The notes under the pieces were generated by a model, which saw only the letters and a program-made list of their open reading frames with translations, had not been told where the DNA came from and searched no databases. Position numbers and translations under genes: made by a program. Positions 4,369 through 22,101 of a DNA stretch of 32,000 bases are shown here, in pieces (position 1 is the first letter of the stretch; each line of letters starts with the position of its first letter). The stretch lies in contig CAYHAA010000001.1 in assembly GCA_964354495.1 (NCBI GenBank), forward strand, positions 646,936 through 678,935, written 5' to 3'. Source of the DNA: an uncultured archaeon. Its GTDB lineage: Archaea > Asgardarchaeota > Thorarchaeia > Thorarchaeales > Thorarchaeaceae.

Positions 4369-5364
4369 ATGGGCGTGAAGAATTGGGGCGATGATGTCAT
4401 TCCGTGGAAATGGACGTCAGCATCCTTAATCGCTCCTGGAGCAATCGCTATAGATGTTCCAAACTATCTCACTCGAAGACTTGTCGTGATGCGTGAGAAG
4501 AGGGAGCGAGAAGGAAGGTTACCCTTGAATCATGTTGGAATGTTTCTCAGCCTCCTCAAAGTTGCATTAGGTGCTCACGTTCTTCCCGTCTTCATCTTCG
4601 ATGGTCCCCCAGAATCACGAAAACGCAGCCCGAATCCTGGACTAGTGGAGAAGGCTTCAACTCTCTACAAGAGATTCCAACAGGAGCGGGACCCCTTCAA
4701 CGAAGAAATGTCTGCTGAGCTTCGGAGAAGTCCTGCGCTCAGAGCATACTTTGCTGCCGCGCATTTGAAAGACCTCGGAAGTATCGTGGGCGTTCCAACG
4801 CTTACAGCACCTTCTGAGGCAGAGATGTTTGCAGCTGTTCTCTGTAGGGACGGTGCCGTAAAGACAGTTGTGTCAAATGATGCAGATGCTCTTCTCTTTG
4901 GGAGTCCTCATGTCACGAAACAGATACAGCTCTCATCGAATCGCATTCTCTCCGTTGCATTGAATGATTTTGAGAAGCATCTTGGCCTCGACATCGAGCT
5001 CCTCCGAGATCTTGCAGTCGTTTCAGGATGTGATTTTCATAAGAAGGGTGTTAGGGGTATTGGAGTGAAACGTGGAACGGTCCTTCTTCGCCGATATGGA
5101 GGTCTCGAAGGATTGCTCAAGGCTCACGGCTACTCCCATGCAGAGCGGAGTGAGTTCATCGAGGCGAGGGAAGTGTTTGATGAGGCTTCCTATATGTCTG
5201 CCAAGGATCTGTATCTGACTCTGAACCCTCCGCTTGTGTCCAAATTTGTTGGAGCTCTTGAGATTATCATGTCCTCGAAACATGCAGAAACAATCGCAAG
5301 CAGGATAGTTACCCTATGGCGCGGCTTTGACAACAGGCAGTCAACATTGGAGCAATGGCTCTAG
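4369..5364 (+). CDS. fen1: Flap endonuclease 1 / XPG-Rad2 family nuclease, divergent paralogue with C-terminal PIP box
   Basis: MGVK N-terminus, AID, PVFIFDGPP..K, APSEAE, SNDADALLFG, GCDF, GVRGIGVKRG (H3TH) and the C-terminal PCNA-binding motif RQSTLEQWL. Confidence 0.88.
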   Translation: MGVKNWGDDVIPWKWTSASLIAPGAIAIDVPNYLTRRLVVMREKREREGRLPLNHVGMFLSLLKVALGAHVLPVFIFDGPPESRKRSPNPGLVEKASTLYKRFQQERDPFNEEMSAELRRSPALRAYFAAAHLKDLGSIVGVPTLTAPSEAEMFAAVLCRDGAVKTVVSNDADALLFGSPHVTKQIQLSSNRILSVALNDFEKHLGLDIELLRDLAVVSGCDFHKKGVRGIGVKRGTVLLRRYGGLEGLLKAHGYSHAERSEFIEAREVFDEASYMSAKDLYLTLNPPLVSKFVGALEIIMSSKHAETIASRIVTLWRGFDNRQSTLEQWL

Positions 5365-7406
5365 AATCTCCTCTGTGCTGACCAGATGTCTTTCCATCTC
5401 TGGCTATCCCTGTTTCTTATCTGATGAAGGACTGACATTCTATATGTCTGCGATGACTTGAGTCGTGCGGTGAAGGAGCGATCAGATGCTTCCTCCATAA
5501 TGTCACGCAGTATTCCGGCAACATGATCATTCTTCTTCGCGGGTACCTGTATGTGCGCAACTACGTCATTCGAGTTTCCGACCAACAATCTGACGAAGGG
5601 AAGTCGTCCGGTCATATCATCGATGAGAGAGTCTCTTGACCTTCTATCGTAGCAGTTTGCCACCGCCATCAGTCCATCAGGAAGCCCACAGAATTCTAAT
5701 GCCGGGAAGTAGACTCGATTCAGCACATGGTCACTTATCATCTGATGAAGCAATCTATTTGCTGTCCGAATCGGGAAATCTACCTGGTCAAACAACCATT
5801 TCCTCTGCGTTTTGGAACCCTCGAATCTCCATAGAATACTGAGAAGCTCCGTCTGCCTCTCTGTCAACGAAAACGGTTTGCTATCTATATGCAATGTGGA
5901 GTATTGAACGGTTCTCTTCTTATTCTTCTTCTTGGGTGAATCAATGTCTCCAATATTCTCAAGATTCCACTTTCCAGTTTGCACATTGAAGTAGTCCAAA
6001 TTCATCGATATGATTTCATCCTCAACGACTGCTTCATGCGATCCTCTAGGTAGAGAAATGACCTCAGGTCCGTTGGTCAGGAACGGTTCAATATATACAG
6101 CGCAGCCACGGATTTTCTGCTCGGTCAAAATCATTCTCTCGACAAGTCCGTCATTGAGTATCTCTGACCTCTGAAGAGGCGTGAATATGTACCTATAACG
6201 AAGTCCAAGTTTTCGAAGCGATGGAATATAACGCTCGTGCAGTAGGTGTTCAAGCTTCTGTAGTGCATAGTAAGCTGTGCGCCCTCTGAACTGAGATACT
6301 TGCTCAAGATCCTTGGCGTTTAGGCTTCTGGAGATATTCCGTTTAGCAAGATTCATGCAAAGCCCTGTAAGAGGAGCGTATTTCAGCAAGTTGATCTCTC
6401 GACGGAATAGTTGCAGGAGCTTCTCATATTCGTTCGCTGCTGGTCCATCAGGTCTGAGCGCCAGGACATCCAAACGAGTAGCTGATACAGAACGAACATC
6501 GATTTCTTCTTGGAGATGACCGCTAAATCCCTTCAGCATCGCCAGCTCATCAGAGATTTCTCTCCTGAGAGATGTCCTCAGTTTTTTGCTGTCAGAGTCT
6601 CTGGATTCAATTCTCCGATACCAGTCACTTATCTTTCTAGAGAGAGGATTTGGTTGTGCTATAGAGACATCCAGTTTCGGATCTTGACCAAGGGCTTCAT
6701 TGATCAGCTCATCAGCTTGTTTCAATCTTGTAGCGAGGTCATCCCAAGAAAACTTGCCAGAATAGACACTTAGTGCACGGTCGAGGACTTCTATCTTGAC
6801 CTCTTCCATCATATAGGACCATAGACTGTATAGCCATGGGACGCTCTGGTCAACAATCCGTGAGATGAAGTAGACGCTTAGAATTGCGGCTGACAAGGAA
6901 TCCAAGCCCGGCATCACTGCTGACCAATCTGCTGCACTCGGAACATGCTCTGTGACAATCCTGCTGAGAGCATAAGAGAAAGAGTTAGCCTCTTCTGACT
7001 CCTCTTTCTCCTCTGCCACTTCCGCACCTGTTCCCTCTTCTGTTTCCTCTTCTCCCATCTCTTCTTTAGCCTGTTTTCCAAAGCTCTTGGGCAACAGTGA
7101 TTTGACTTGTTCTCTGAGGGTTCCTCCTGTGGGCTTGAGTGGCCTCATTCGAGTTGTTATCTCATCCATAACCTTTTCATAATTGAGAGGCTTGTTGAGT
7201 GACGCTGGCGTAACTGCGGTATCAGGAAGAGGCGACAGATGAAAGGTCTTCTCGAAAAGCGTTTCATCTAATCTGCCTGAGTCTGTTTTCCAAGAGGATG
7301 AGTCCATGATTATGTGCCTAAGTATATTCAGATCAGAAGTCCGCCTGCTTCTTTTCATCCACTCCAAGTAGCTCTGCTTTTTCTCAGTCAAGCTTGCATA
7401 CATCAT
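5361..7406 (-). CDS. Large hypothetical protein with tandem C-terminal wHTH + Lrp/AsnC-like modules; putative transcriptional regulator
   Basis: 681-aa ORF. HTH-like SLNAKDLEQVSQFRGRTAYYALQKL followed by PSLRKLGL; a second HTH-like LTERQTELLSILW...TANRLLHQM followed by YFP...GL and LP...VP. The stop codon overlaps the fen1 stop in CTAG. The domain call is by pattern only. Confidence 0.55.
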   Translation of the reverse strand: MMYASLTEKKQSYLEWMKRSRRTSDLNILRHIIMDSSSWKTDSGRLDETLFEKTFHLSPLPDTAVTPASLNKPLNYEKVMDEITTRMRPLKPTGGTLREQVKSLLPKSFGKQAKEEMGEEETEEGTGAEVAEEKEESEEANSFSYALSRIVTEHVPSAADWSAVMPGLDSLSAAILSVYFISRIVDQSVPWLYSLWSYMMEEVKIEVLDRALSVYSGKFSWDDLATRLKQADELINEALGQDPKLDVSIAQPNPLSRKISDWYRRIESRDSDSKKLRTSLRREISDELAMLKGFSGHLQEEIDVRSVSATRLDVLALRPDGPAANEYEKLLQLFRREINLLKYAPLTGLCMNLAKRNISRSLNAKDLEQVSQFRGRTAYYALQKLEHLLHERYIPSLRKLGLRYRYIFTPLQRSEILNDGLVERMILTEQKIRGCAVYIEPFLTNGPEVISLPRGSHEAVVEDEIISMNLDYFNVQTGKWNLENIGDIDSPKKKNKKRTVQYSTLHIDSKPFSLTERQTELLSILWRFEGSKTQRKWLFDQVDFPIRTANRLLHQMISDHVLNRVYFPALEFCGLPDGLMAVANCYDRRSRDSLIDDMTGRLPFVRLLVGNSNDVVAHIQVPAKKNDHVAGILRDIMEEASDRSFTARLKSSQTYRMSVLHQIRNRDSQRWKDIWSAQRRF

Positions 7407-16914: not shown

Positions 16915-18888
16915 TCAGGACCTGATTTGATTGAGAAAACCAGTTATATCATCATCCCAAGTCCCATCAGGTAGCAATAGCCTTTGATAGAGGTTGTTAA
17001 CATATCCTGCGTAAGCAGAGACTCTGTAACCCTTGATGACGACATCATGCTCACTGGCCTTTCTAGGGAGGTCAACGAGAATATCATACGCCCTCTTCTC
17101 CGGCACCCTTGCCATGACTACACAAAGATTGCTGCTTTCAGAAACCATGGCTGTCGTGGTTGGAAGGTGCATCAATGTGGATCTCGCAATTGAATAGAGT
17201 TGAGGAATCTCACCCCTTATTTCAAGGCAAATCGAAGCGAGTCCATAGATAGTAGGGAAGTACTGCAAGTTCGCTATCTTTGCCTGTATAAATGAAGCCA
17301 GCTTTTCTTTCAATGACTCCTTGCTCATATTTAGAATGCCATCATATTCGCTGAGCTCCAGCGACTGGTTGTATATTCCCCATGATATCAGATCCAGCAC
17401 CCTTGCATCTTCATCTGATAGTACACTTATTTCTCCGCAGCTTGTCAGGTCAAATTGCCGGTTCATTTGCTTGAATGTTCTTCTACCATTCAACGAACTC
17501 TGCAAGCGGACAGTGTTGTTCTTCCAAGTTTCATGTCTTGGTGAATACAATCCGTAGTTCAATCTTGACGCGCTCCAGTCAATTGAAGCAATATTCTGTC
17601 TTGTACGCATGATTCTGTCAACAGCTGTCTTTGGCATTACAAGGACCTGAATATGCGGAGGCTTCTGACCAGGATTTCCAAGTCTGGCTGTATACTGAAG
17701 GTGCTTGTGCGGCCACCTGTGTGCTCCTCCAATGTAAACGAGTTTGGCCAATCCAAGTCTTTCATCTTGCACATACCCTCTCATGATGAGGTTGCTTCTA
17801 ATCAGCGAAAAACGGTCAAGCCATGCTTCCTTTGATTTCTTAGCCTCTTCTCTTGATATTGGGATACCCGTGTGTACTTCTTGCCTCAGATTAAGAGAAT
17901 GAGCCAGACCAATTACCCTTGCTTTGCGATCAGGAAATGTTTCTGATATCCTATACCATGTAATACTCCAAGGATCATTTTCGGTCTCTTCTGTCCTTGG
18001 TCCAAGGTCAGACTCGGGCCCGCCTCGATTAACAAGTGCCATTATTCGTACATACTGGGGCGGTGGTGTTCCTTGTATTAGACATTGAGTGTGCCCAAAC
18101 ACAAGGTTGGATAGGATTGCTCCTGACGGAAAGCTTTGGTTGACTCTTGCCAGAAAGTCTAGAGGGTCTTCTGTGGGAGGCTCCAGTTTAGTTGTCCATG
18201 CAAGAAACGCTATCAATTCCTGCCTGATTCTCTCAGAGAAGACCTTTGGCACCAGCTGATTCACCGTTTCACCCATTGTTCTCTTACGTTCGAGTTCGGG
18301 TATGTCTACACCTTCCACGAGCTTTCCCAGGCTTGACCAAGATGGTGCCGGTTTGTCCAATAGGTCCGCTAATGACACATCTGTCAAAGCCCGTTTTTGG
18401 CTCGCGAACAGCCTATTATACAGCTCCCAATCAGATTCCTGTTGGAGGATCGAGACTTCAAAACCGTTTATTGGGTGAAATCGGACCAGATTGCCCGTGG
18501 AATTCTCTAGGACACTCAGGAGATACCGTGAGTCCTTCCTGACTTTTTGAATTGCCAGAGTTGCATCTATTCCCTCAGGCGATAGATATGTTATCCATCT
18601 GTTGGTGCTTGGGGGATAGAGATCATCTTGACCGACTGATTCTCGTCTGTGCTTCCTCTTGAATATAGATGCAGCGAACTCAACTCGATCATCAGGTGTC
18701 AATGATATTGACCGACACAGAGCTTCATCCGTTATTGAGAAATCGATGTTGCTGTCGGACAACTCCATCTCGGAATTATCTGCATTCAGTAGCTTCGGCC
18801 CTTCTCTCGTGTAACATAGATTACTCGGAATTACTCTGCCGCTTGATAGGAATACCCTAACAGGAAGCCTCATGAGGTCTGCATCCAT
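16915..18888 (-). CDS. Large hypothetical protein with C-terminal wHTH + Lrp/AsnC-like modules, paralogous to 5361-7406
   Basis: 657-aa ORF with ERLGL, LNYGLYSPRHETW, LSDEDARVLDLISW, YFPTIYGL, LP...RVP and a terminal Y...Y.RLL..DGTW. This is the same motif order as the 681-aa protein. Confidence 0.55.
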   Translation of the reverse strand: MDADLMRLPVRVFLSSGRVIPSNLCYTREGPKLLNADNSEMELSDSNIDFSITDEALCRSISLTPDDRVEFAASIFKRKHRRESVGQDDLYPPSTNRWITYLSPEGIDATLAIQKVRKDSRYLLSVLENSTGNLVRFHPINGFEVSILQQESDWELYNRLFASQKRALTDVSLADLLDKPAPSWSSLGKLVEGVDIPELERKRTMGETVNQLVPKVFSERIRQELIAFLAWTTKLEPPTEDPLDFLARVNQSFPSGAILSNLVFGHTQCLIQGTPPPQYVRIMALVNRGGPESDLGPRTEETENDPWSITWYRISETFPDRKARVIGLAHSLNLRQEVHTGIPISREEAKKSKEAWLDRFSLIRSNLIMRGYVQDERLGLAKLVYIGGAHRWPHKHLQYTARLGNPGQKPPHIQVLVMPKTAVDRIMRTRQNIASIDWSASRLNYGLYSPRHETWKNNTVRLQSSLNGRRTFKQMNRQFDLTSCGEISVLSDEDARVLDLISWGIYNQSLELSEYDGILNMSKESLKEKLASFIQAKIANLQYFPTIYGLASICLEIRGEIPQLYSIARSTLMHLPTTTAMVSESSNLCVVMARVPEKRAYDILVDLPRKASEHDVVIKGYRVSAYAGYVNNLYQRLLLPDGTWDDDITGFLNQIRS

Positions 18889-19006
18889 CTGTGTTCAGGG
18901 AGTATAGGTAGTGTATTTGTAGTATTTGTTCTCGTCTTGATAGTCCATATAACAATGAGAAAGATGCAATGAGATACTTCTATACTACCTGGGAAACTGG
19001 GAATTT

Positions 19007-19051
19007 GAGGGCCTTGCGAATCCTAAACAAATCTTCGGATCCCAGGCCCTC
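19007..19051 (-). terminator. Stem-loop immediately 3' of the 40-aa ORF
   Basis: GAGGGCCT (19007-19014) pairs with AGGCCCTC (19044-19051), with an inner GGATCC/GGATTC stem. Begins 10 nt after the stop codon on the minus strand. Confidence 0.45.
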
Positions 19052-19060
19052 TTGTTCTCT

Positions 19061-19183
19061 CTACCAGGGTTCTGGAGGTTTGTCGGTCGGTGTATTGCAG
19101 GTGACTGCGACATAGCTCCAAGGCTCTGGAGGTTTGTCTGTGGGTGTACCAGCGTATCTTTGGTAGTTGTGTTTGTTGATCAT
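19061..19183 (-). CDS. Unannotated 40-aa peptide MINKHNYQRYAGTPTDKPPEPWSYVAVTCNTPTDKPPEPW with two identical 10-aa cores
   Basis: Hand translation. The two 30-nt copies differ at 4 positions, all third-codon and synonymous (CCC/CCG, ACA/ACC, GAG/GAA, CCT/CCC). The stop follows the last Trp directly. An alternative GTG start lies at 19192. Confidence 0.65.
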   Translation of the reverse strand: MINKHNYQRYAGTPTDKPPEPWSYVAVTCNTPTDKPPEPW

Positions 19184-19332
19184 TGCGTTCACGAAATTCC
19201 ATGACGCACCCTACGCCTCAGATTCCTATGGAAATCATACGCACATTGAGACTCGTCTTTTGCTTCTAAACAAGTCAAAACTCACATCAATTCCTCCAGG
19301 AGATTGGTGAGTATATTAGGCAAAGGAGTGTA

Positions 19333-19377
19333 CAGATATTTTCAGATATTTCTATCTAGAAGATGATAGCAGATATT
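19333..19377. promoter_or_regulatory. Three copies of CAGATATT (19333, 19343, 19370) upstream of the peptide ORF
   Basis: The first two copies are in tandem at 10-bp spacing. A minus-strand TATA-like TAATATA lies at about 19312-19318. Confidence 0.35.
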
Positions 19378-19390
19378 CATTGATTGGATG

Positions 19391-19400
19391 AAAAAAAAAA
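19391..19400 (-). terminator. T10 tract (minus strand), likely terminator of the tfb-tfb transcript
   Basis: A10 on the + strand, about 145 nt downstream of the distal tfb stop. A 7-bp hairpin GGCTGCA-N6-TGCAGCC at 19517-19536 lies 10 nt after that stop. Confidence 0.55.
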
Positions 19401-19546
19401 CACTGGCACTCGTTCTAGTGGGAGGATGTCCACAATTGACTTGCCAGGCTGCTTGCGTTCTCTACGAAGGAGAGAACCAATTCACCATTATAATGAACTT
19501 GAGAACAGAATGAGATGGCTGCATCTTCCTGCAGCCCTCTCTGATT

Positions 19547-20527
19547 CTATGCAGTCAGTGCCAGAGCCTCAGGCAGTATCGTCAGACGCAATTTCGCCAC
19601 GAGTTCCTTGTACCTGTTGCGAATCGTGACCTCAGTGACACCACTCACTTGCGAGATATCATGTTGTGTGACCCTGCAATCATGCATGATTGCTGCCACA
19701 TAGATAGCAGCTGCTGCAAGGCCTCTTGGGTCTCGACCTGTCACAAGACCGCGGACTTCCTTTGCCTTCTCGAGGATTTCCATGGTGGTGTGCTGCACCT
19801 CTGTGGGTAGATCAAGTTCTGAGATGAACCTAGGAACGTACATGGCCGGGCTCGAGATTGGCATCCTGAGCTTCAGCTTTGTCACAAGCATTCGATAGTG
19901 TGCAGAGATCTTTTTCTTCGACTCCCTTGAATGCTCGGCTATCTCTTCAATCGAACGGGGCGAGCCCCGATGCCTGCAGGCAGCATAAACAGCTGCTGCA
20001 GCGGTTGCATCAATGCTTCGGCTTCGCCAGAGTCTTCCCGCAATGAGTTTCCGATACATACGTGCTGCCTCATCTTTCAAGCTCTGCGACATACCTAGTT
20101 GCGATGATAACCGATCAATCTCAGTCATGGCCTGAGCCAAATTCCTATCAAGCGAGCTGTGTACTCGGGTTCGAATCTGCCACTTGCGAAGCCGGTAGAT
20201 CTGTGCTCTCTGTTTTGCACTGAAAGCCACTCCCTTTCCATCTCTGTCACGCCAGTCAATGGTCGTGCTTAGCCCTTTATCGTGAATCGAAGCGCTCTCG
20301 GGCGCGCCAGTCCTTGAGCGAGAGTCTTGTTCATCTGACGTGAATGCACGCCACTCAGGACCTGAGTCTATACGGTGGTCGCTGAGCACTAACCCGCACT
20401 TTGCACAGATCAATTCTCCCTTCTCATTATCCCTGACAACCTCTACTCCCCCACACTCGGGGCATGAGGCGTTCAGGGTTTCTACTTCTCCTAGTCCCTC
20501 TCTTTTATCTAATGAATTGCTTGCCAT
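19547..20527 (-). CDS. tfb: Transcription initiation factor IIB (TFB), paralogue 2
   Basis: Zn ribbon CPECGG...CAKCG, B-reader GPEWRAF, LRKWQIR, two cyclin repeats and the HTH VTQHDISQVSGVTEVTIRNRYKEL. Confidence 0.96.
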   Translation of the reverse strand: MASNSLDKREGLGEVETLNASCPECGGVEVVRDNEKGELICAKCGLVLSDHRIDSGPEWRAFTSDEQDSRSRTGAPESASIHDKGLSTTIDWRDRDGKGVAFSAKQRAQIYRLRKWQIRTRVHSSLDRNLAQAMTEIDRLSSQLGMSQSLKDEAARMYRKLIAGRLWRSRSIDATAAAAVYAACRHRGSPRSIEEIAEHSRESKKKISAHYRMLVTKLKLRMPISSPAMYVPRFISELDLPTEVQHTTMEILEKAKEVRGLVTGRDPRGLAAAAIYVAAIMHDCRVTQHDISQVSGVTEVTIRNRYKELVAKLRLTILPEALALTA

Positions 20528-20614: not shown

Positions 20615-21574
20615 TTACGGTGCCATTGTGATGCTAAGTTTCTGAACGAGTTCCTTGTATCGATTCCTCACGGTGACCTCAGTCACGCCTGCCGCCATGG
20701 CAATATCGCGCTGAGTCACACGGTGATCCGTGAGAATGCTTGCTATGTAGATGGCAGCAGCCGCTAGACCTCGTGGATCTCTCCCAGTCACGAGAGTCCT
20801 GTTTTCCTTGGCTTGTTCTAGGATTTCGATGACTTTCTGTTGCACGATACCTGGTAGATCGAGCTCTGTGACGAAGCGTGGCACATAGTTCGCCGGATCT
20901 GAGATGGGCATCTTCAGACTCAGTTTTTCCACTAGTAGTCTGTAGTGCTGTCCAATCTTCTTTCGGCTCACTCGTGAGTGTCTCGCTATCTCCTCAAGAG
21001 AACGTGGTGCATTTCTCAGTCTGCATGCGGCGTATATTGATGCTCCGACCATTGCATCGATTGATCTGCTACGAGCAAGTCGTCGAACAATCAGTTTTCT
21101 GTACAGTAGTGCAGCAAGTTCCTTGATACTCTTATTGAGTCCCAGCTGTGAGGACAGTCGGTCAAGCTCAGACATTGCCTGGGCAAGATTTCTGTCGACC
21201 GAGCTATGAACTCTAGTTCGTATCTGCCATTTACGAAGACGATAGATCTCTGAGCGCTTCTTCGCCGAGAATCGCTTTCCCTGCGAGTCATGGTCGCGCC
21301 AGTCGATCATGGTGCTGAGACCCTTGTCGTGTATCGCGTAGTTCGTTGGGGCGCCAGCTCGTGAGCGAGCGTCCTTCTCATCGCTCGTGAAAGCTCTCCA
21401 TTCAGGTCCTGAGTCTATCCGATGCTCTGAAACGACCAGACCGCACGATGCACAGATTCGTTCTCCCTTCTCAAGGTCTTGTACTGCCTCCTTACCTCCA
21501 CATTCGGGGCAAGTGAAGCCAGTATCTCCTCTAGAAGACCGTTCTGGTTGTTTTCTTTCACTGCGCGATGACAT
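20615..21574 (-). CDS. tfb: Transcription initiation factor IIB (TFB), paralogue 1
   Basis: CPECGG...CASCG, GPEWRAF, IHDKGLST, LRKWQIR and VTQRDIAMAAGVTEVTVRNRYKEL. Confidence 0.97.
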   Translation of the reverse strand: MSSRSERKQPERSSRGDTGFTCPECGGKEAVQDLEKGERICASCGLVVSEHRIDSGPEWRAFTSDEKDARSRAGAPTNYAIHDKGLSTMIDWRDHDSQGKRFSAKKRSEIYRLRKWQIRTRVHSSVDRNLAQAMSELDRLSSQLGLNKSIKELAALLYRKLIVRRLARSRSIDAMVGASIYAACRLRNAPRSLEEIARHSRVSRKKIGQHYRLLVEKLSLKMPISDPANYVPRFVTELDLPGIVQQKVIEILEQAKENRTLVTGRDPRGLAAAAIYIASILTDHRVTQRDIAMAAGVTEVTVRNRYKELVQKLSITMAP

Positions 21575-21734
21575 GGTTATTCAGCTCCTCTGCTATGGGA
21601 ATCGACAATTCGGTACGCATGATGTTGCCATGTAAAACAGTCGTTGCATCGAGGTGGCGTCGATGTTGTAAAGAATTCAGTCCAATCCCCGTTCAGTGCC
21701 GTTACCTTTATATACCCTGATATACTCTGAAGTG

Positions 21735-21749
21735 CTTATAAAGCTTTCG
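21735..21749 (-). promoter_or_regulatory. BRE-TATA promoter of the tfb pair
   Basis: The minus strand reads CGAAAGC-TTTATAAG, a near-consensus archaeal BRE/TATA, about 160 nt upstream of the tfb start. Confidence 0.65.
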
Positions 21750-22101
21750 TTCCTTTTGTACACTAAGGATTGCTTCGGGGGCGCAGACAATACGACGCAT
21801 TTTTTTTGATATAAGCGTTGCGAAAGGGCTGGCCGGCGGTGATACCTCTACCCCTGCAGGTTCTTTGCTGATCCTCTATTCATAGTCTTCTCGACACTGT
21901 GCAGACAGTCACCTCGTTGTCGGAGGCTGTGGTCTATACTGGCGCTGGTGGTACAATCAACAGGAACTTCCTCTCCCTTGCACTTGGCTTGCGATGCCTA
22001 GCTTGGGGGCCAACCTGTGACGTGCTCGCCTCCTAGAACCTCGTGGACGGGCTCACGCACGGCTAGTACATGCTACATCCTGTCAGGTCGTGGGATCTTT
22101 G

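What the first reader, a model, noticed from the sequence alone, without database searches (positions are those of the whole stretch)
19061..19183. Hidden 40-aa peptide with two identical TPTDKPPEPW cores, upstream of a putative regulator
Seen: the 650-bp gap between tfb and the 657-aa gene holds a minus-strand ORF below the 60-aa cutoff, MINKHNYQRYAG-TPTDKPPEPW-SYVAVTCN-TPTDKPPEPW-stop. The two copies differ at 4 of 30 nt and all 4 changes are synonymous in this frame. In the overlapping 59-aa minus frame, 2 of the 4 change the amino acid. The + strand frame in which they are also silent has a TAG between the copies (19113-19115). The ORF ends exactly on the core Trp and is followed by a hairpin. 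Established: leader-plus-repeated-core layouts occur in multicore RiPP precursors (cyanobactin PatE; graspetide precursors such as plesiocin, whose cores use T/K/D/E side chains), and small peptide genes lie beside their cognate regulators in RRNPP signalling systems. Inference: this is a selected peptide product, possibly a signalling peptide or RiPP precursor, linked to the co-oriented downstream wHTH-module protein. I do not recognise the core from any described family, and no maturation enzyme is visible in the window.
Basis: partly seen in the sequence, partly recalled or inferred. Interest (0 to 1): 0.85.

Follow-up and report, generated by a model that had tools for sequence, protein, structure and literature searches.

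The report
Conserved proline-rich peptide gene beside regulator
The hidden 40-codon reading frame is a real, strongly selected micro-gene of a Thorarchaeota (Asgard) genome; together with the neighbouring Lrp/AsnC-fold protein it forms an undescribed peptide-plus-partner module found three times in this genome and across the family.

Summary
The minus-strand ORF 19061-19183 encodes 40 aa with two identical 10-aa cores (4 nt differences, all silent). A co-oriented tiny ORF ending in EPW lies upstream of the homologue of the 657-aa gene in 37 of 37 loci of the genus, covering both paralogues, and in 28 of 45 loci from other genera of the family.

Twelve-plus genomes carry 2-3 identical cores. 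The copies differ at 64 nucleotide positions, all synonymous, while cores differ between genomes. Of 7 strain variants in the ORF, 6 are silent.

Each micro-gene has a TATA-like box, a Shine-Dalgarno-like element and a hairpin plus T-run. The large gene has its own promoter.

The 657-aa protein has no Pfam match. Its C-terminal half folds as a fused Lrp/AsnC pseudo-dimer (NirDL, Z 11.4).

A third module in the same genome pairs a 12-aa peptide, divergently oriented, with an unrelated-in-sequence 571-aa protein that has AsnC-type HTH domains. This rules out a cis-acting leader peptide.

Best reading: the peptide is the cognate ligand or partner of the adjacent regulator-like protein. Whether it is exported, processed or modified is open. 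I found no described equivalent.

The parts
19061..19183 (-). Micro-gene of 40 codons plus TAG stop: a 12-aa N-terminal part, core 1, an 8-aa spacer with the single Cys, then core 2 ending on Trp directly before the stop
   Evidence: Orthologous ORFs with the same start, frame and EPW-stop occur in 16 of 16 type-1 loci. Six of 7 strain variants are synonymous.
19118..19147 (-). Core copy 1, TPTDKPPEPW
   Evidence: It aligns with the weaker E-S-P-F motif of single-core orthologues.
19064..19093 (-). Core copy 2, TPTDKPPEPW, identical in protein and different at 4 silent positions
19187..19192 (-). Shine-Dalgarno-like GTGAAC, 4 nt before the ATG
   Evidence: Read. The same position holds GGTAAT or AGTGAT 5-9 nt before the ATG in nearly all 37 loci. 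That this is a ribosome-binding site is inferred.
19311..19318 (-). TATA-like box TAATATAC about 130 nt upstream of the ATG, implying a 5' leader of about 100 nt
   Evidence: Conserved between G000 and G012. An A/T box of type TAAATAAAG sits at the same distance in the other loci. Function as a promoter is inferred.
19345..19378 (-). Conserved block upstream of the TATA-like box, with repeated AATATCTG words and a TCTAGA-centred inverted repeat; a candidate operator
   Evidence: Nearly identical in G000 and G012 although the surrounding spacer has diverged; repeats D3. No motif shared by all loci was found.
19007..19051 (-). GC-rich hairpin starting 10 nt after the stop, followed by a pyrimidine/T-rich tract; terminator-like
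   Evidence: -24.6 kcal/mol. G012 keeps the stem through paired changes (GG to AA with CC to TT) and has a T6 run. A strong hairpin, mostly with a T-run, follows the small ORF in nearly all 37 loci, but the sequences differ.
16915..18888 (-). 657-aa partner gene: N-terminal beta domain (1-140), helical region, then a fused Lrp/AsnC-like pseudo-dimer (about 322-657) with an invariant Y385, G387, W392, H394, H396 motif
   Evidence: AF2 model pLDDT 85.7. NirDL 4ch7: Foldseek E 1.9e-5 and VIA Z 11.4 with 266 aligned residues. AFDB Lrp/AsnC regulators: E 1e-13 to 1e-8. Invariant columns. No Pfam or NCBIfam match.

Best explanation
Window 19061-19183 (-) is a translated micro-gene. It is an independent transcription unit with its own promoter-like box, SD-like element and terminator-like hairpin, and it sits just upstream of the separately promoted 657-aa gene. 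Its product is a proline-rich peptide with two identical TPTDKPPEPW cores. I read this peptide as the cognate ligand or binding partner of the adjacent protein. That protein's C-terminal half is a fused Lrp/AsnC-type pseudo-dimer (wHTH plus RAM-like domains). The proposed mechanism is inferred, not shown. The acidic-Pro-aromatic end of each core (E-P-W) docks into the basic, His-rich cleft formed by the RAM-like domains, where Lrp/AsnC regulators bind amino acids and where sirohaem decarboxylase binds its carboxylated substrate. Docking changes the oligomeric or DNA-binding state of the protein and so changes transcription, probably including transcription of the peptide gene itself. Two or three identical cores would either engage several identical pockets at once or be cut into several identical peptides. 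Either would explain why the copies must stay identical within a genome while the core drifts between genomes together with its fast-evolving partner. The module exists in three versions in this genome and throughout the Thorarchaeota family sampled. Whether the peptide acts inside the cell or is exported as a cell-to-cell signal is not decided by my data.
For: 1. Coding and selection.
- Cores are identical in protein although the copies differ at 4-8 of 30-42 nt, in 12 or more genomes. All 64 differences are synonymous; the naive probability is about 1e-40.
- In G012 the two Arg codons are CGG and AGG where G000 has AAA in both copies. This indicates parallel replacement rather than gene conversion.
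- Of 7 strain-level variants inside the ORF, 6 are silent third positions. The 172-nt spacer carries 17 variants and an indel.

2. Linkage to the neighbour.
- One co-oriented ORF ending in EPW (plus 0-2 aa) lies 85-331 nt upstream of the large gene in 37 of 37 loci of the genus, covering both paralogues.
- Similar ORFs occur in 28 of 45 loci from other genera, some with 2-4 cores.
- Genome-wide, only 4 small Pro-rich ORFs end in [ED]P[WF]. Three of them sit beside the only three genes of the two partner families.

3. A second, sequence-unrelated partner family.
- A 571-aa protein with Pfam HTH_AsnC-type (36.5 bits, cutoff 27) and HTH_24 hits has a divergently oriented 12-aa peptide ending PPEPW. 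Eight of 9 close orthologues in three genera keep this arrangement.

4. Separate transcription units.
- The small gene has a TATA-like box, an SD-like element and a hairpin with T-run. A second TATA-like box precedes the large gene.

5. Fold of the partner.
- NirDL scores Z 11.4 over residues 322-657. AFDB Lrp/AsnC regulators also match.
[quoted passage not shown] Family A has an invariant W-x-H-x-H on the first RAM-like domain.

6. Complex prediction: weak support.
- The score was 0.48 (runs 0.48, 0.27, 0.55) against a best control of 0.01.
- The mark was reached by 58 of 80 solved complexes and 2 of 110 mismatched pairs. At 0.60 or under it was reached by only 7 of those 80 and by both mismatches that passed.
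- The runs agree in at least 40% of contacts. The partner's pLDDT is at least 39.

7. RNA library.
- Contigs of an RNA library cover 18798-19173 and two stretches around the second tfb, and apart from a few short partial matches nothing else in 19.5 kb.
Against: - No binding, DNA-binding or expression experiment exists.
- The complex prediction gives only weak support, and no interface was reported.
- Family A has no sequence match to any HTH or AsnC model. Its best solved structural match is an enzyme, not a regulator.
- Some peptides carry 1-3 residues after the aromatic residue, so a free Trp carboxylate cannot be a universal requirement without trimming.
- No operator shared by all loci was found.
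- Seventeen of 45 loci in other genera, and the distant paralogues of the 571-aa family, showed no such ORF with my simple pattern.
- The RNA evidence is a few low-depth contigs from a near strain and could include DNA.
- The genomes are related, so locus counts overstate independence.
Confidence: 0.55

Rival explanations
1. RiPP or peptide-derived cofactor precursor. The small ORF is a (multi)core precursor, and the adjacent Lrp/AsnC-fold protein is its maturation enzyme, as sirohaem decarboxylase is an enzyme with that fold. The enzyme would act on the invariant Glu/aromatic end, for example by decarboxylation, cross-linking or cleavage after the aromatic residue.
For: - The layout is a leader plus identical repeated cores, with an invariant E-P-[WF] end.
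- The best solved structural match is the enzyme NirDL (Z 11.4).
- Invariant His, Trp and Tyr residues lie on a RAM-like domain. These resemble the HXYXR catalytic pocket motif of AhbA/B.
- A hairpin directly after a short precursor gene is common in RiPP clusters (my own knowledge).
Against: - No ATP-grasp, radical SAM, peptidase, cyclodehydratase or transporter gene lies beside the modules in this genome.
- Type 2 and type 3 peptides are only 12-13 aa with no leader.
- The second partner family has clear AsnC-type HTH domains typical of regulators.
- The divergent arrangement of peptide gene and partner is typical of a regulator and its target.
- Cores diverge quickly between species, which is unusual for a cofactor precursor.
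Confidence: 0.2
2. The peptide is an independent micro-protein whose real target is elsewhere, for example a proline-motif-binding domain, a protease or the translation machinery. The neighbouring Lrp/AsnC-like protein merely regulates its transcription without binding it.
For: - The two genes are separate transcription units.
- Regulators often sit beside their targets. The divergent type 3 layout fits a regulator-target pair.
- The complex prediction gives only weak support.
Against: - Within-genome core identity combined with between-genome drift points to a co-evolving specific partner.
- The adjacent proteins themselves evolve fast: 33-45% identity within one genus.
- Slow-evolving type 3 proteins go with slow-evolving type 3 peptides.
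- The peptide kind pairs with two different partner families of the same fold.
Confidence: 0.15
3. Cis-acting regulatory leader peptide or upstream ORF. Ribosomes stall on the Pro-rich PPEPW-stop, which would be dependent on aIF5A or proline supply. The stall controls read-through of the following hairpin into the large gene. This would be analogous to tnaC, mgtL/mgtP or the PPW-stop upstream ORF of antizyme inhibitor (comparisons recalled from memory).
For: - The tiny ORF is rich in Pro-Pro motifs and ends at a conserved aromatic residue plus stop.
- A hairpin with T-run follows it, upstream of and co-oriented with the large gene in types 1 and 2.
- One RNA-library contig runs from the ORF into the large gene.
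Against: - In the type 3 modules the peptide gene is divergent from its partner, so no cis read-through is possible.
- The large gene has its own conserved TATA-like box after the hairpin.
- The stop-to-hairpin distance varies from 0 to 57 nt.
- The residues before EPW drift quickly between species but stay identical between copies. An arrest peptide read by the conserved ribosome tunnel would not be expected to do this.
Confidence: 0.05
4. Non-coding direct repeat, either a protein-binding site or a chance repeat, inside a promoter region. On this reading the ORF is accidental.
For: The repeat lies in an intergenic region near promoters. Short ORFs arise easily by chance.
Against: - All 64 copy differences are synonymous in one frame.
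- Start, frame and stop are conserved in 37 of 37 loci although the DNA has diverged beyond recognition.
- An SD-like element is present at the right distance.
- Population variants are concentrated at third codon positions.
- There is no Rfam match.
Confidence: 0.01

Closest known systems
RRNPP(A) peptide-receptor pairs of Bacillota and their phages (Rap/Phr, PlcR/PapR, Rgg/SHP, AimR/AimP), including propeptides with tandemly duplicated pheromones (PMC11343458)
   Same: - A very small peptide gene lies directly beside the gene of a cytoplasmic, regulator-type receptor, in either co-oriented or divergent layout.
- The active part is at the C-terminal end of the peptide.
- Cores are sometimes tandemly duplicated.
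- Several orthogonal pairs occur per genome.
- Peptide and partner diverge quickly and in a correlated way.
   Different: - The partner has a fused Lrp/AsnC (wHTH plus RAM) fold, not TPR repeats.
- The peptides have no signal sequence or hydrophobic segment and are Pro/acidic-rich.
- No export, processing or Opp-type import has been shown.
- The organism is an Asgard archaeon.
- There is no sequence homology on either side.
Multicore RiPP precursors (cyanobactin PatE, graspetides such as plesiocin) and multi-copy pheromone precursors cut from repeats (fungal alpha-factor type, PMC6339444)
   Same: - A leader is followed by two to four identical cores separated by short spacers.
- Core identity is maintained by selection.
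- A hairpin follows the precursor gene.
   Different: - No known maturation enzyme, protease or transporter lies in the neighbourhood.
- Most family members have a single core, and types 2 and 3 have no leader at all.
- There are no dibasic or other recognisable cleavage signals. The only constant is the aromatic residue at each core end.
Lrp/AsnC (feast/famine) regulators and their enzyme offshoot sirohaem decarboxylase AhbA/B and NirDL (PMC2995911, PMC4145669)
   Same: - The partner's C-terminal half superposes on the fused two-unit NirDL (Z 11.4, 266 residues).
- The family B partner has Pfam AsnC-type HTH domains.
- In this fold, ligands bind between the RAM-like domains.
   Different: - Known ligands are free amino acids or a tetrapyrrole, not gene-encoded peptides.
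- Family A has no detectable sequence similarity to the family.
- Family A carries an extra 320-residue N-terminal part whose beta domain has no fold match.
Proline-rich 14-codon micro-gene between two wHTH genes in Korarchaeota
   Same: An archaeal, proline-rich, selected micro-gene is paired with DNA-binding protein genes and was read as an RRNPP-like analogue.
   Different: It is in another phylum and forms a three-gene module, often inside CRISPR-Cas loci. I did not compare sequences or folds. This is an AI note, not independent evidence.

Membership tests
RRNPP(A) quorum-sensing pairs | Receptor built of TPR repeats | tested here: not met
   The fold is Lrp/AsnC-like. There are no TPR hits in Pfam or Foldseek.
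RRNPP(A) quorum-sensing pairs | Peptide gene adjacent to its receptor gene | tested here: met
   37 of 37 loci in the genus; 8 of 9 type 3 orthologues
RRNPP(A) quorum-sensing pairs | Propeptide exported (Sec signal or PptAB), processed outside the cell and re-imported by Opp | not testable with these tools
   No signal peptide or hydrophobic stretch is visible in any peptide. Exporters and importers were not searched.
Multicore RiPP precursors (cyanobactin or graspetide type) | Leader peptide followed by repeated cores | tested here: inconclusive
   Met in G000 and about a dozen other genomes. Most members have one core, and types 2 and 3 have no leader.
Multicore RiPP precursors (cyanobactin or graspetide type) | Class-defining maturation enzyme (ATP-grasp, PatA/PatG protease, YcaO, radical SAM) encoded nearby | tested here: not met
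   None is in the window neighbourhood or beside the type 2 and type 3 loci of this genome. Co-occurrence elsewhere in the genome was not searched.
Lrp/AsnC (FFRP) family, for the 657-aa partner | wHTH followed by a RAM (beta-alpha-beta-beta-alpha-beta) domain | tested here: met
   By predicted structure only: NirDL Z 11.4 over residues 322-657; AFDB Lrp/AsnC entries E 1e-13 to 1e-8
Lrp/AsnC (FFRP) family, for the 657-aa partner | Sequence match to HTH_AsnC-type or AsnC_trans_reg models | tested here: not met
   No match in any of 37 members at E up to 1. There is no PDB sequence match. The separate 571-aa family does match HTH_AsnC-type.
Lrp/AsnC (FFRP) family, for the 657-aa partner | Sequence-specific DNA binding modulated by a small ligand | not testable with these tools
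   Needs EMSA or DAP-seq with and without peptide.
Leader-peptide attenuators (trpL, tnaC, mgtL type) | Small ORF in the 5' leader of the regulated gene, on the same transcript, with no promoter in between | tested here: not met
   A conserved TATA-like box lies between the hairpin and the large gene. Type 3 peptide genes are divergent from the partner gene.

The most novel reading that the evidence does not exclude
Thorarchaeota possess a gene-encoded peptide communication system. Short Pro-rich peptides ending in E-P-W/F, some released in several identical copies from one precursor, would be exported and sensed by cognate fused Lrp/AsnC-type receptors. Three orthogonal channels per genome and rapidly diverging 'pherotypes' would exist. 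This would be the first ribosomal-peptide quorum-sensing or kin-recognition system in Archaea, in the lineage closest to eukaryotes, and it would use a receptor fold not known to read peptides.
Probability: 0.2. Interest if true: 0.95.

Novelty: new variant of a known kind. Interest (0 to 1): 0.85.

Why it matters
- Gene-encoded peptide-partner cassettes are well known in Bacillota. In four full-text literature searches I found no comparable archaeal system described.
- This micro-gene is invisible to standard annotation at 12-45 codons, yet it shows some of the cleanest protein-level selection one can get from sequence alone. It is tied to two families of Lrp/AsnC-fold proteins that have no assigned function.
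- If the peptide is the ligand, the known ligand range of this very common archaeal regulator fold would extend from amino acids to peptides.
- It would also give Asgard archaea a specific, diversifying signal-receptor system that can be tested with synthetic peptides and recombinant protein, without needing a culture.
- The case shows that repeat copies differing only synonymously are a powerful flag for hidden peptide genes.

Tried and rejected
- Pfam and NCBIfam gave nothing on the 657-aa protein or the peptide. Pfam gave nothing on all 37 family members at E up to 1. A PDB sequence profile search also gave nothing.
- Rfam on 18700-19650 gave no match, so no known RNA explains the region.
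- The sigma-70 promoter scan is irrelevant for an archaeon. Its one 'terminator' hit is on the wrong strand, inside the ORF.
- The N-terminal beta domain (1-150, pLDDT 91.5) was folded alone to test an EVH1-, SH3- or GYF-like proline-binding fold. No match reached Z 5 or Foldseek E 0.001, so the idea is unsupported.
- I searched for an operator or palindrome shared by all peptide promoters. None was found beyond lineage-specific blocks.
- The palindromic TCGTCC...GGACGA stems after type 2 ORFs could be operators or terminators. This is undecided.
- hhalign of family A against the 571-aa protein gave probability 7%, so homology is not shown.
- The 681-aa Lrp-like gene in the window (5361-7406) has no EPW-type ORF upstream and is not a sequence relative of family A.
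- A fourth genome-wide pattern hit (contig C12) is not beside any partner gene. It is matched by 3 hits of a reversed control pattern, so it is probably chance.
- Exact look-up of the peptide and both partners in the protein collection found nothing.
- Complex prediction gave only weak support (reported with its controls above).
- Between-species dN/dS of the whole ORF is not low: 18 non-synonymous against 12 synonymous changes between G000 and G012. The selection signal lies in copy identity, the invariant end and population variants, not in overall conservation.

Full report
**1. The observation**

The minus strand of the window carries an ORF with ATG at 19183-19181 and TAG at 19063-19061. 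It encodes 40 aa in four parts: a 12-aa N-terminal part, TPTDKPPEPW, an 8-aa spacer (SYVAVTCN), and TPTDKPPEPW again.

The DNA repeat is 19064-19094 / 19118-19148, with 27 of 31 nt identical and a spacing of 54 nt. A degenerate back-translation of the core matches only these two places in the window, with none in 100 shuffles. It also matches only these two places in the whole 3.3-Mb genome.

The four differences are all third-position and silent.
- There are two amino-acid changes in the overlapping 59-aa frame.
- A stop at 19113-19115 lies in the + frame.
- A hairpin follows directly after the stop.

**2. It is a conserved gene, not an accident**

The window comes from a Candidatus Thorarchaeota MAG. 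Record titles of the relatives confirm this.

The downstream 657-aa gene has homologues in all 24 other genomes of the genus that were searched, mostly as two paralogues per genome. It had no homologues in 16 genomes from elsewhere in the phylum. A profile search found it in 74 of 85 genomes of the family and in 16 of 17 genera of the class. Worldwide it has only 143 clusters at 50% identity among 1.84 billion representatives.

I oriented 37 loci from the genus on the large gene. Every one has exactly one co-oriented small ORF ending in EPW, followed by the stop or by 1-2 further residues. This ORF lies 85-331 nt upstream of the large gene.
- Type 1 comprises the orthologues of the window's pair. 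The ORFs are 36-45 aa, with a conserved N-terminal part, an S-P-F motif, one Cys and the terminal EPW.
- Type 2 comprises the paralogue, which in this genome lies on contig C24. The ORFs have a 12-16-aa unit of the form M-x-P-x(6-9)-EPW. In this genome the peptide is MRPTMEPSLPEPW.

In other genera, 28 of 45 loci have comparable Pro-rich ORFs ending in [ED]P[WF]. Several have two to four identical cores, such as KPFTPPPEPW three times. In 17 loci my simple pattern found nothing.

**3. Selection acts on the peptide and on copy identity**

In every genome with repeated cores the copies are identical in amino acids but differ at 1-8 nucleotide positions. Over 16 copy comparisons, all 64 differences are synonymous. 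About 22% of random substitutions would be synonymous, which gives a naive probability near 1e-40. The genomes are related, but the differing sites are mostly different from genome to genome. Similarity stops exactly at the core edges.

Between G000 and its nearest relative G012 (657-aa protein 75% identical), the core changed at three positions, and it changed in both copies: TPTDK to VPTGR. The two new Arg codons are CGG and AGG. Synonymous divergence between copies (4-5 of 10 codons) is at least as large as between the species (12 of 40 codons). This pattern indicates parallel replacement under selection for identical copies, not recent gene conversion.

At the population level, contigs of near strains show 7 variant sites inside the ORF. 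Six are silent third positions and one changes Ile2 to Met. The 172-nt spacer downstream carries 17 variants and a 3-nt indel.

**4. Gene anatomy**

About 125-135 nt upstream of each ATG there is an A/T box. In this window it is TAATATAC at 19311-19318; in most other loci it is TAAATAAAG. An SD-like GGTAAT, AGTGAT or GTGAAC lies 4-9 nt before the ATG. In type 2 this element marks the M-x-P methionine even where longer in-frame ORFs exist.

Between 0 and 57 nt after the stop there is a strong GC-rich hairpin, usually followed by a T-run. The hairpin sequence differs between genomes but the structure is kept. G012 keeps the window's stem through paired changes.

After the hairpin the large gene has its own conserved TATA-like box. 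The two genes are therefore separate transcription units. There is no Rfam match.

In one RNA-seq library of a soil metatranscriptome, contigs from a near strain cover 18798-19173. They also cover two stretches around the second tfb gene. Apart from a few short partial matches, they cover nothing else in 19.5 kb. This is modest evidence of transcription and does not prove it.

**5. The partner protein**

The 657-aa protein has no Pfam, NCBIfam or PDB sequence match.

An AlphaFold2 model built on 37 homologues has mean pLDDT 85.7. Residues about 322-657 superpose on NirDL, the fused two-unit sirohaem decarboxylase, which has an Lrp/AsnC-type fold:
- Foldseek gives E 1.9e-5.
- VIA-align gives Z 11.4, 266 aligned residues and rmsd 5.8, well above the next rows at 7.8.
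- AlphaFold DB clusters named Lrp/AsnC or ArsR regulators match residues 149-656 with E 1e-13 to 1e-8.

The N-terminal beta domain (1-150) was folded alone at pLDDT 91.5 and has no convincing fold match.

The invariant residues include Y385, G387, W392, H394 and H396, on the first RAM-like domain. In AhbA/B, a conserved HXYXR motif on the equivalent beta-sheet domain lines the substrate cavity between the two units (PMC4145669). I infer, but have not shown, that this cleft receives the acidic-aromatic end of the peptide.

**6. A third module settles the leader-peptide question**

A genome-wide search for P-E-P-W-stop found a third site on contig C10. It is a 12-aa ORF, MNDPPKNPPEPW. It lies about 130 nt from, and divergent to, a 571-aa gene whose product has Pfam HTH_AsnC-type and HTH_24 domains above their cut-offs.

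Eight of nine close orthologues (48-75% identity, in three genera) keep a divergent 12-14-aa ORF of the form M-x-x-P-P-x-N-P-x-E-P-[WF]. The 571-aa family is not detectably homologous in sequence to family A (hhalign probability 7%).

In the whole genome only four small Pro-rich ORFs end in [ED]P[WF]. Three of them lie beside the only three genes of these two families. A reversed control pattern gives three hits.

This peptide kind therefore goes with the protein fold, in either gene orientation. That is what a ligand-receptor or substrate-enzyme pair predicts, and it is incompatible with a cis-acting leader peptide.

**7. Direct test of binding**

A complex prediction of the 657-aa protein with the 40-aa peptide gave weak support:
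- The score was 0.48 (runs 0.48, 0.27, 0.55) against a best control of 0.01.
- The mark was reached by 58 of 80 solved complexes and 2 of 110 mismatched pairs.
- At 0.60 or under it was reached by only 7 of those 80 solved complexes and by both mismatches that passed.
- The runs agree in at least 40% of contacts, and the partner's pLDDT is at least 39.

I count this as a small increment only.

**8. Interpretation**

Shown by these analyses:
- The ORF is a translated, selected micro-gene with its own expression signals.
- It is obligately linked to Lrp/AsnC-fold proteins.
- Its copies are kept identical while the core drifts between genomes.

Inferred:
- The peptide binds the adjacent protein through its E-P-W end.
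- The peptide thereby controls a transcriptional response.
- Identical copies serve either multivalent binding to identical pockets or release of several identical peptides.

Open: whether the peptide is exported, processed or modified.

Confidence in each reading:
- Ligand or partner of the adjacent protein: 0.55.
- RiPP or substrate reading: 0.2. It remains alive because the nearest solved structure is an enzyme and the invariant residues look pocket-like.
- Independent micro-protein: 0.15.
- Cis leader peptide: 0.05.
- Non-coding repeat: 0.01.

**9. Comparison with known systems**

Functionally the closest analogues are the RRNPP(A) peptide-receptor pairs, including those with tandemly duplicated pheromones (PMC11343458). 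This module is not a member of that family. The receptor fold differs, the peptides lack export signals, and there is no homology.

It is also not a member of any described RiPP class, because no class-defining enzyme is present.

Family A is Lrp/AsnC-like by fold only. Known ligands of that fold are amino acids or a tetrapyrrole (PMC2995911, PMC4145669).

Four full-text literature searches found no description of such peptides or of this protein family.

It is a lead suggesting the theme may be wider in Archaea. I did not test it.

**10. Verdict**

This is a real and unusually well-supported hidden gene, and an undescribed, family-wide peptide-partner module in Asgard archaea. I class it as a new variant of a known kind (peptide plus cognate regulator-type partner). 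Interest is 0.85.

Noticed in passing
G000 contig C24, L024:1503-1544 (+) and L024:1739-3760 (+): The second module of the same genome: a 13-aa ORF MRPTMEPSLPEPW lies 194 nt upstream of a 673-aa paralogue (30% identical to the 657-aa protein). The neighbours are an RNase HII-like gene and unrelated genes.
   Followed up: yes
G000 contig C10, L113:1470-1508 (+) and L114:1623-3338 (-): The third module: a 12-aa ORF MNDPPKNPPEPW is divergent from a 571-aa protein with two AsnC-type wHTH domains. The arrangement is conserved in 8 of 9 close orthologues across three genera.
   Followed up: yes
window 5361-7406 (-): A 681-aa protein that the first stage described as having Lrp/AsnC-like halves. It has no Pfam match, is not a BLAST relative of the 657-aa family, and has no EPW-type small ORF upstream. 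Only 113 nt separate it from a divergent gene.
   Followed up: partly
window 19547-20527 (-) and 20615-21574 (-): Two tandem TFB (TFIIB-type) paralogues lie directly upstream of the micro-gene. This neighbourhood is kept in G012 but not in other genomes, so it is not part of the module.
   Followed up: partly
L024, L025, L028, L029, L033, L036, L040, L042 and others, about 200-300 nt upstream of the type 2 peptide ATG; also L004: A highly conserved stretch (GGAGCCCGT..ACCGG.CTAGGCCACG.CCC) upstream of many type 2 loci looks like a tRNA gene on the opposite strand. L004 has a tRNA-like sequence ending in CCA upstream of its type 1 peptide. I did not run ARAGORN on them.
   Followed up: no
L085 (G057 contig C134, 4357 bp): Two copies of a two-core peptide gene (DPSDPLTEPF twice, then a third P-F end) lie on opposite strands of one short contig. 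One copy is cut by the contig end.
   Followed up: no
type 2 loci, 25-60 nt after the small ORF stop (for example L028, L030-L033, L037, L039, L042): The hairpins after type 2 ORFs share a palindromic sequence, (A)TCGTCC(C)-N5-7-(G)GGACGA(T), across genomes. Type 1 hairpins share none. This could be a conserved operator for a dimeric wHTH protein as well as, or instead of, a terminator.
   Followed up: partly
window 21584-21775: An RNA-library contig of a near strain covers the region upstream of the second tfb gene and carries a 10-nt deletion at 21710 relative to the window.
   Followed up: no
G000 contig C12:74463-74513 (-): This 16-aa ORF MDFPYQAPLREPFEHP fits the loose pattern, but no partner-family gene is nearby. 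It is probably chance, since the control pattern gives 3 hits.
   Followed up: partly
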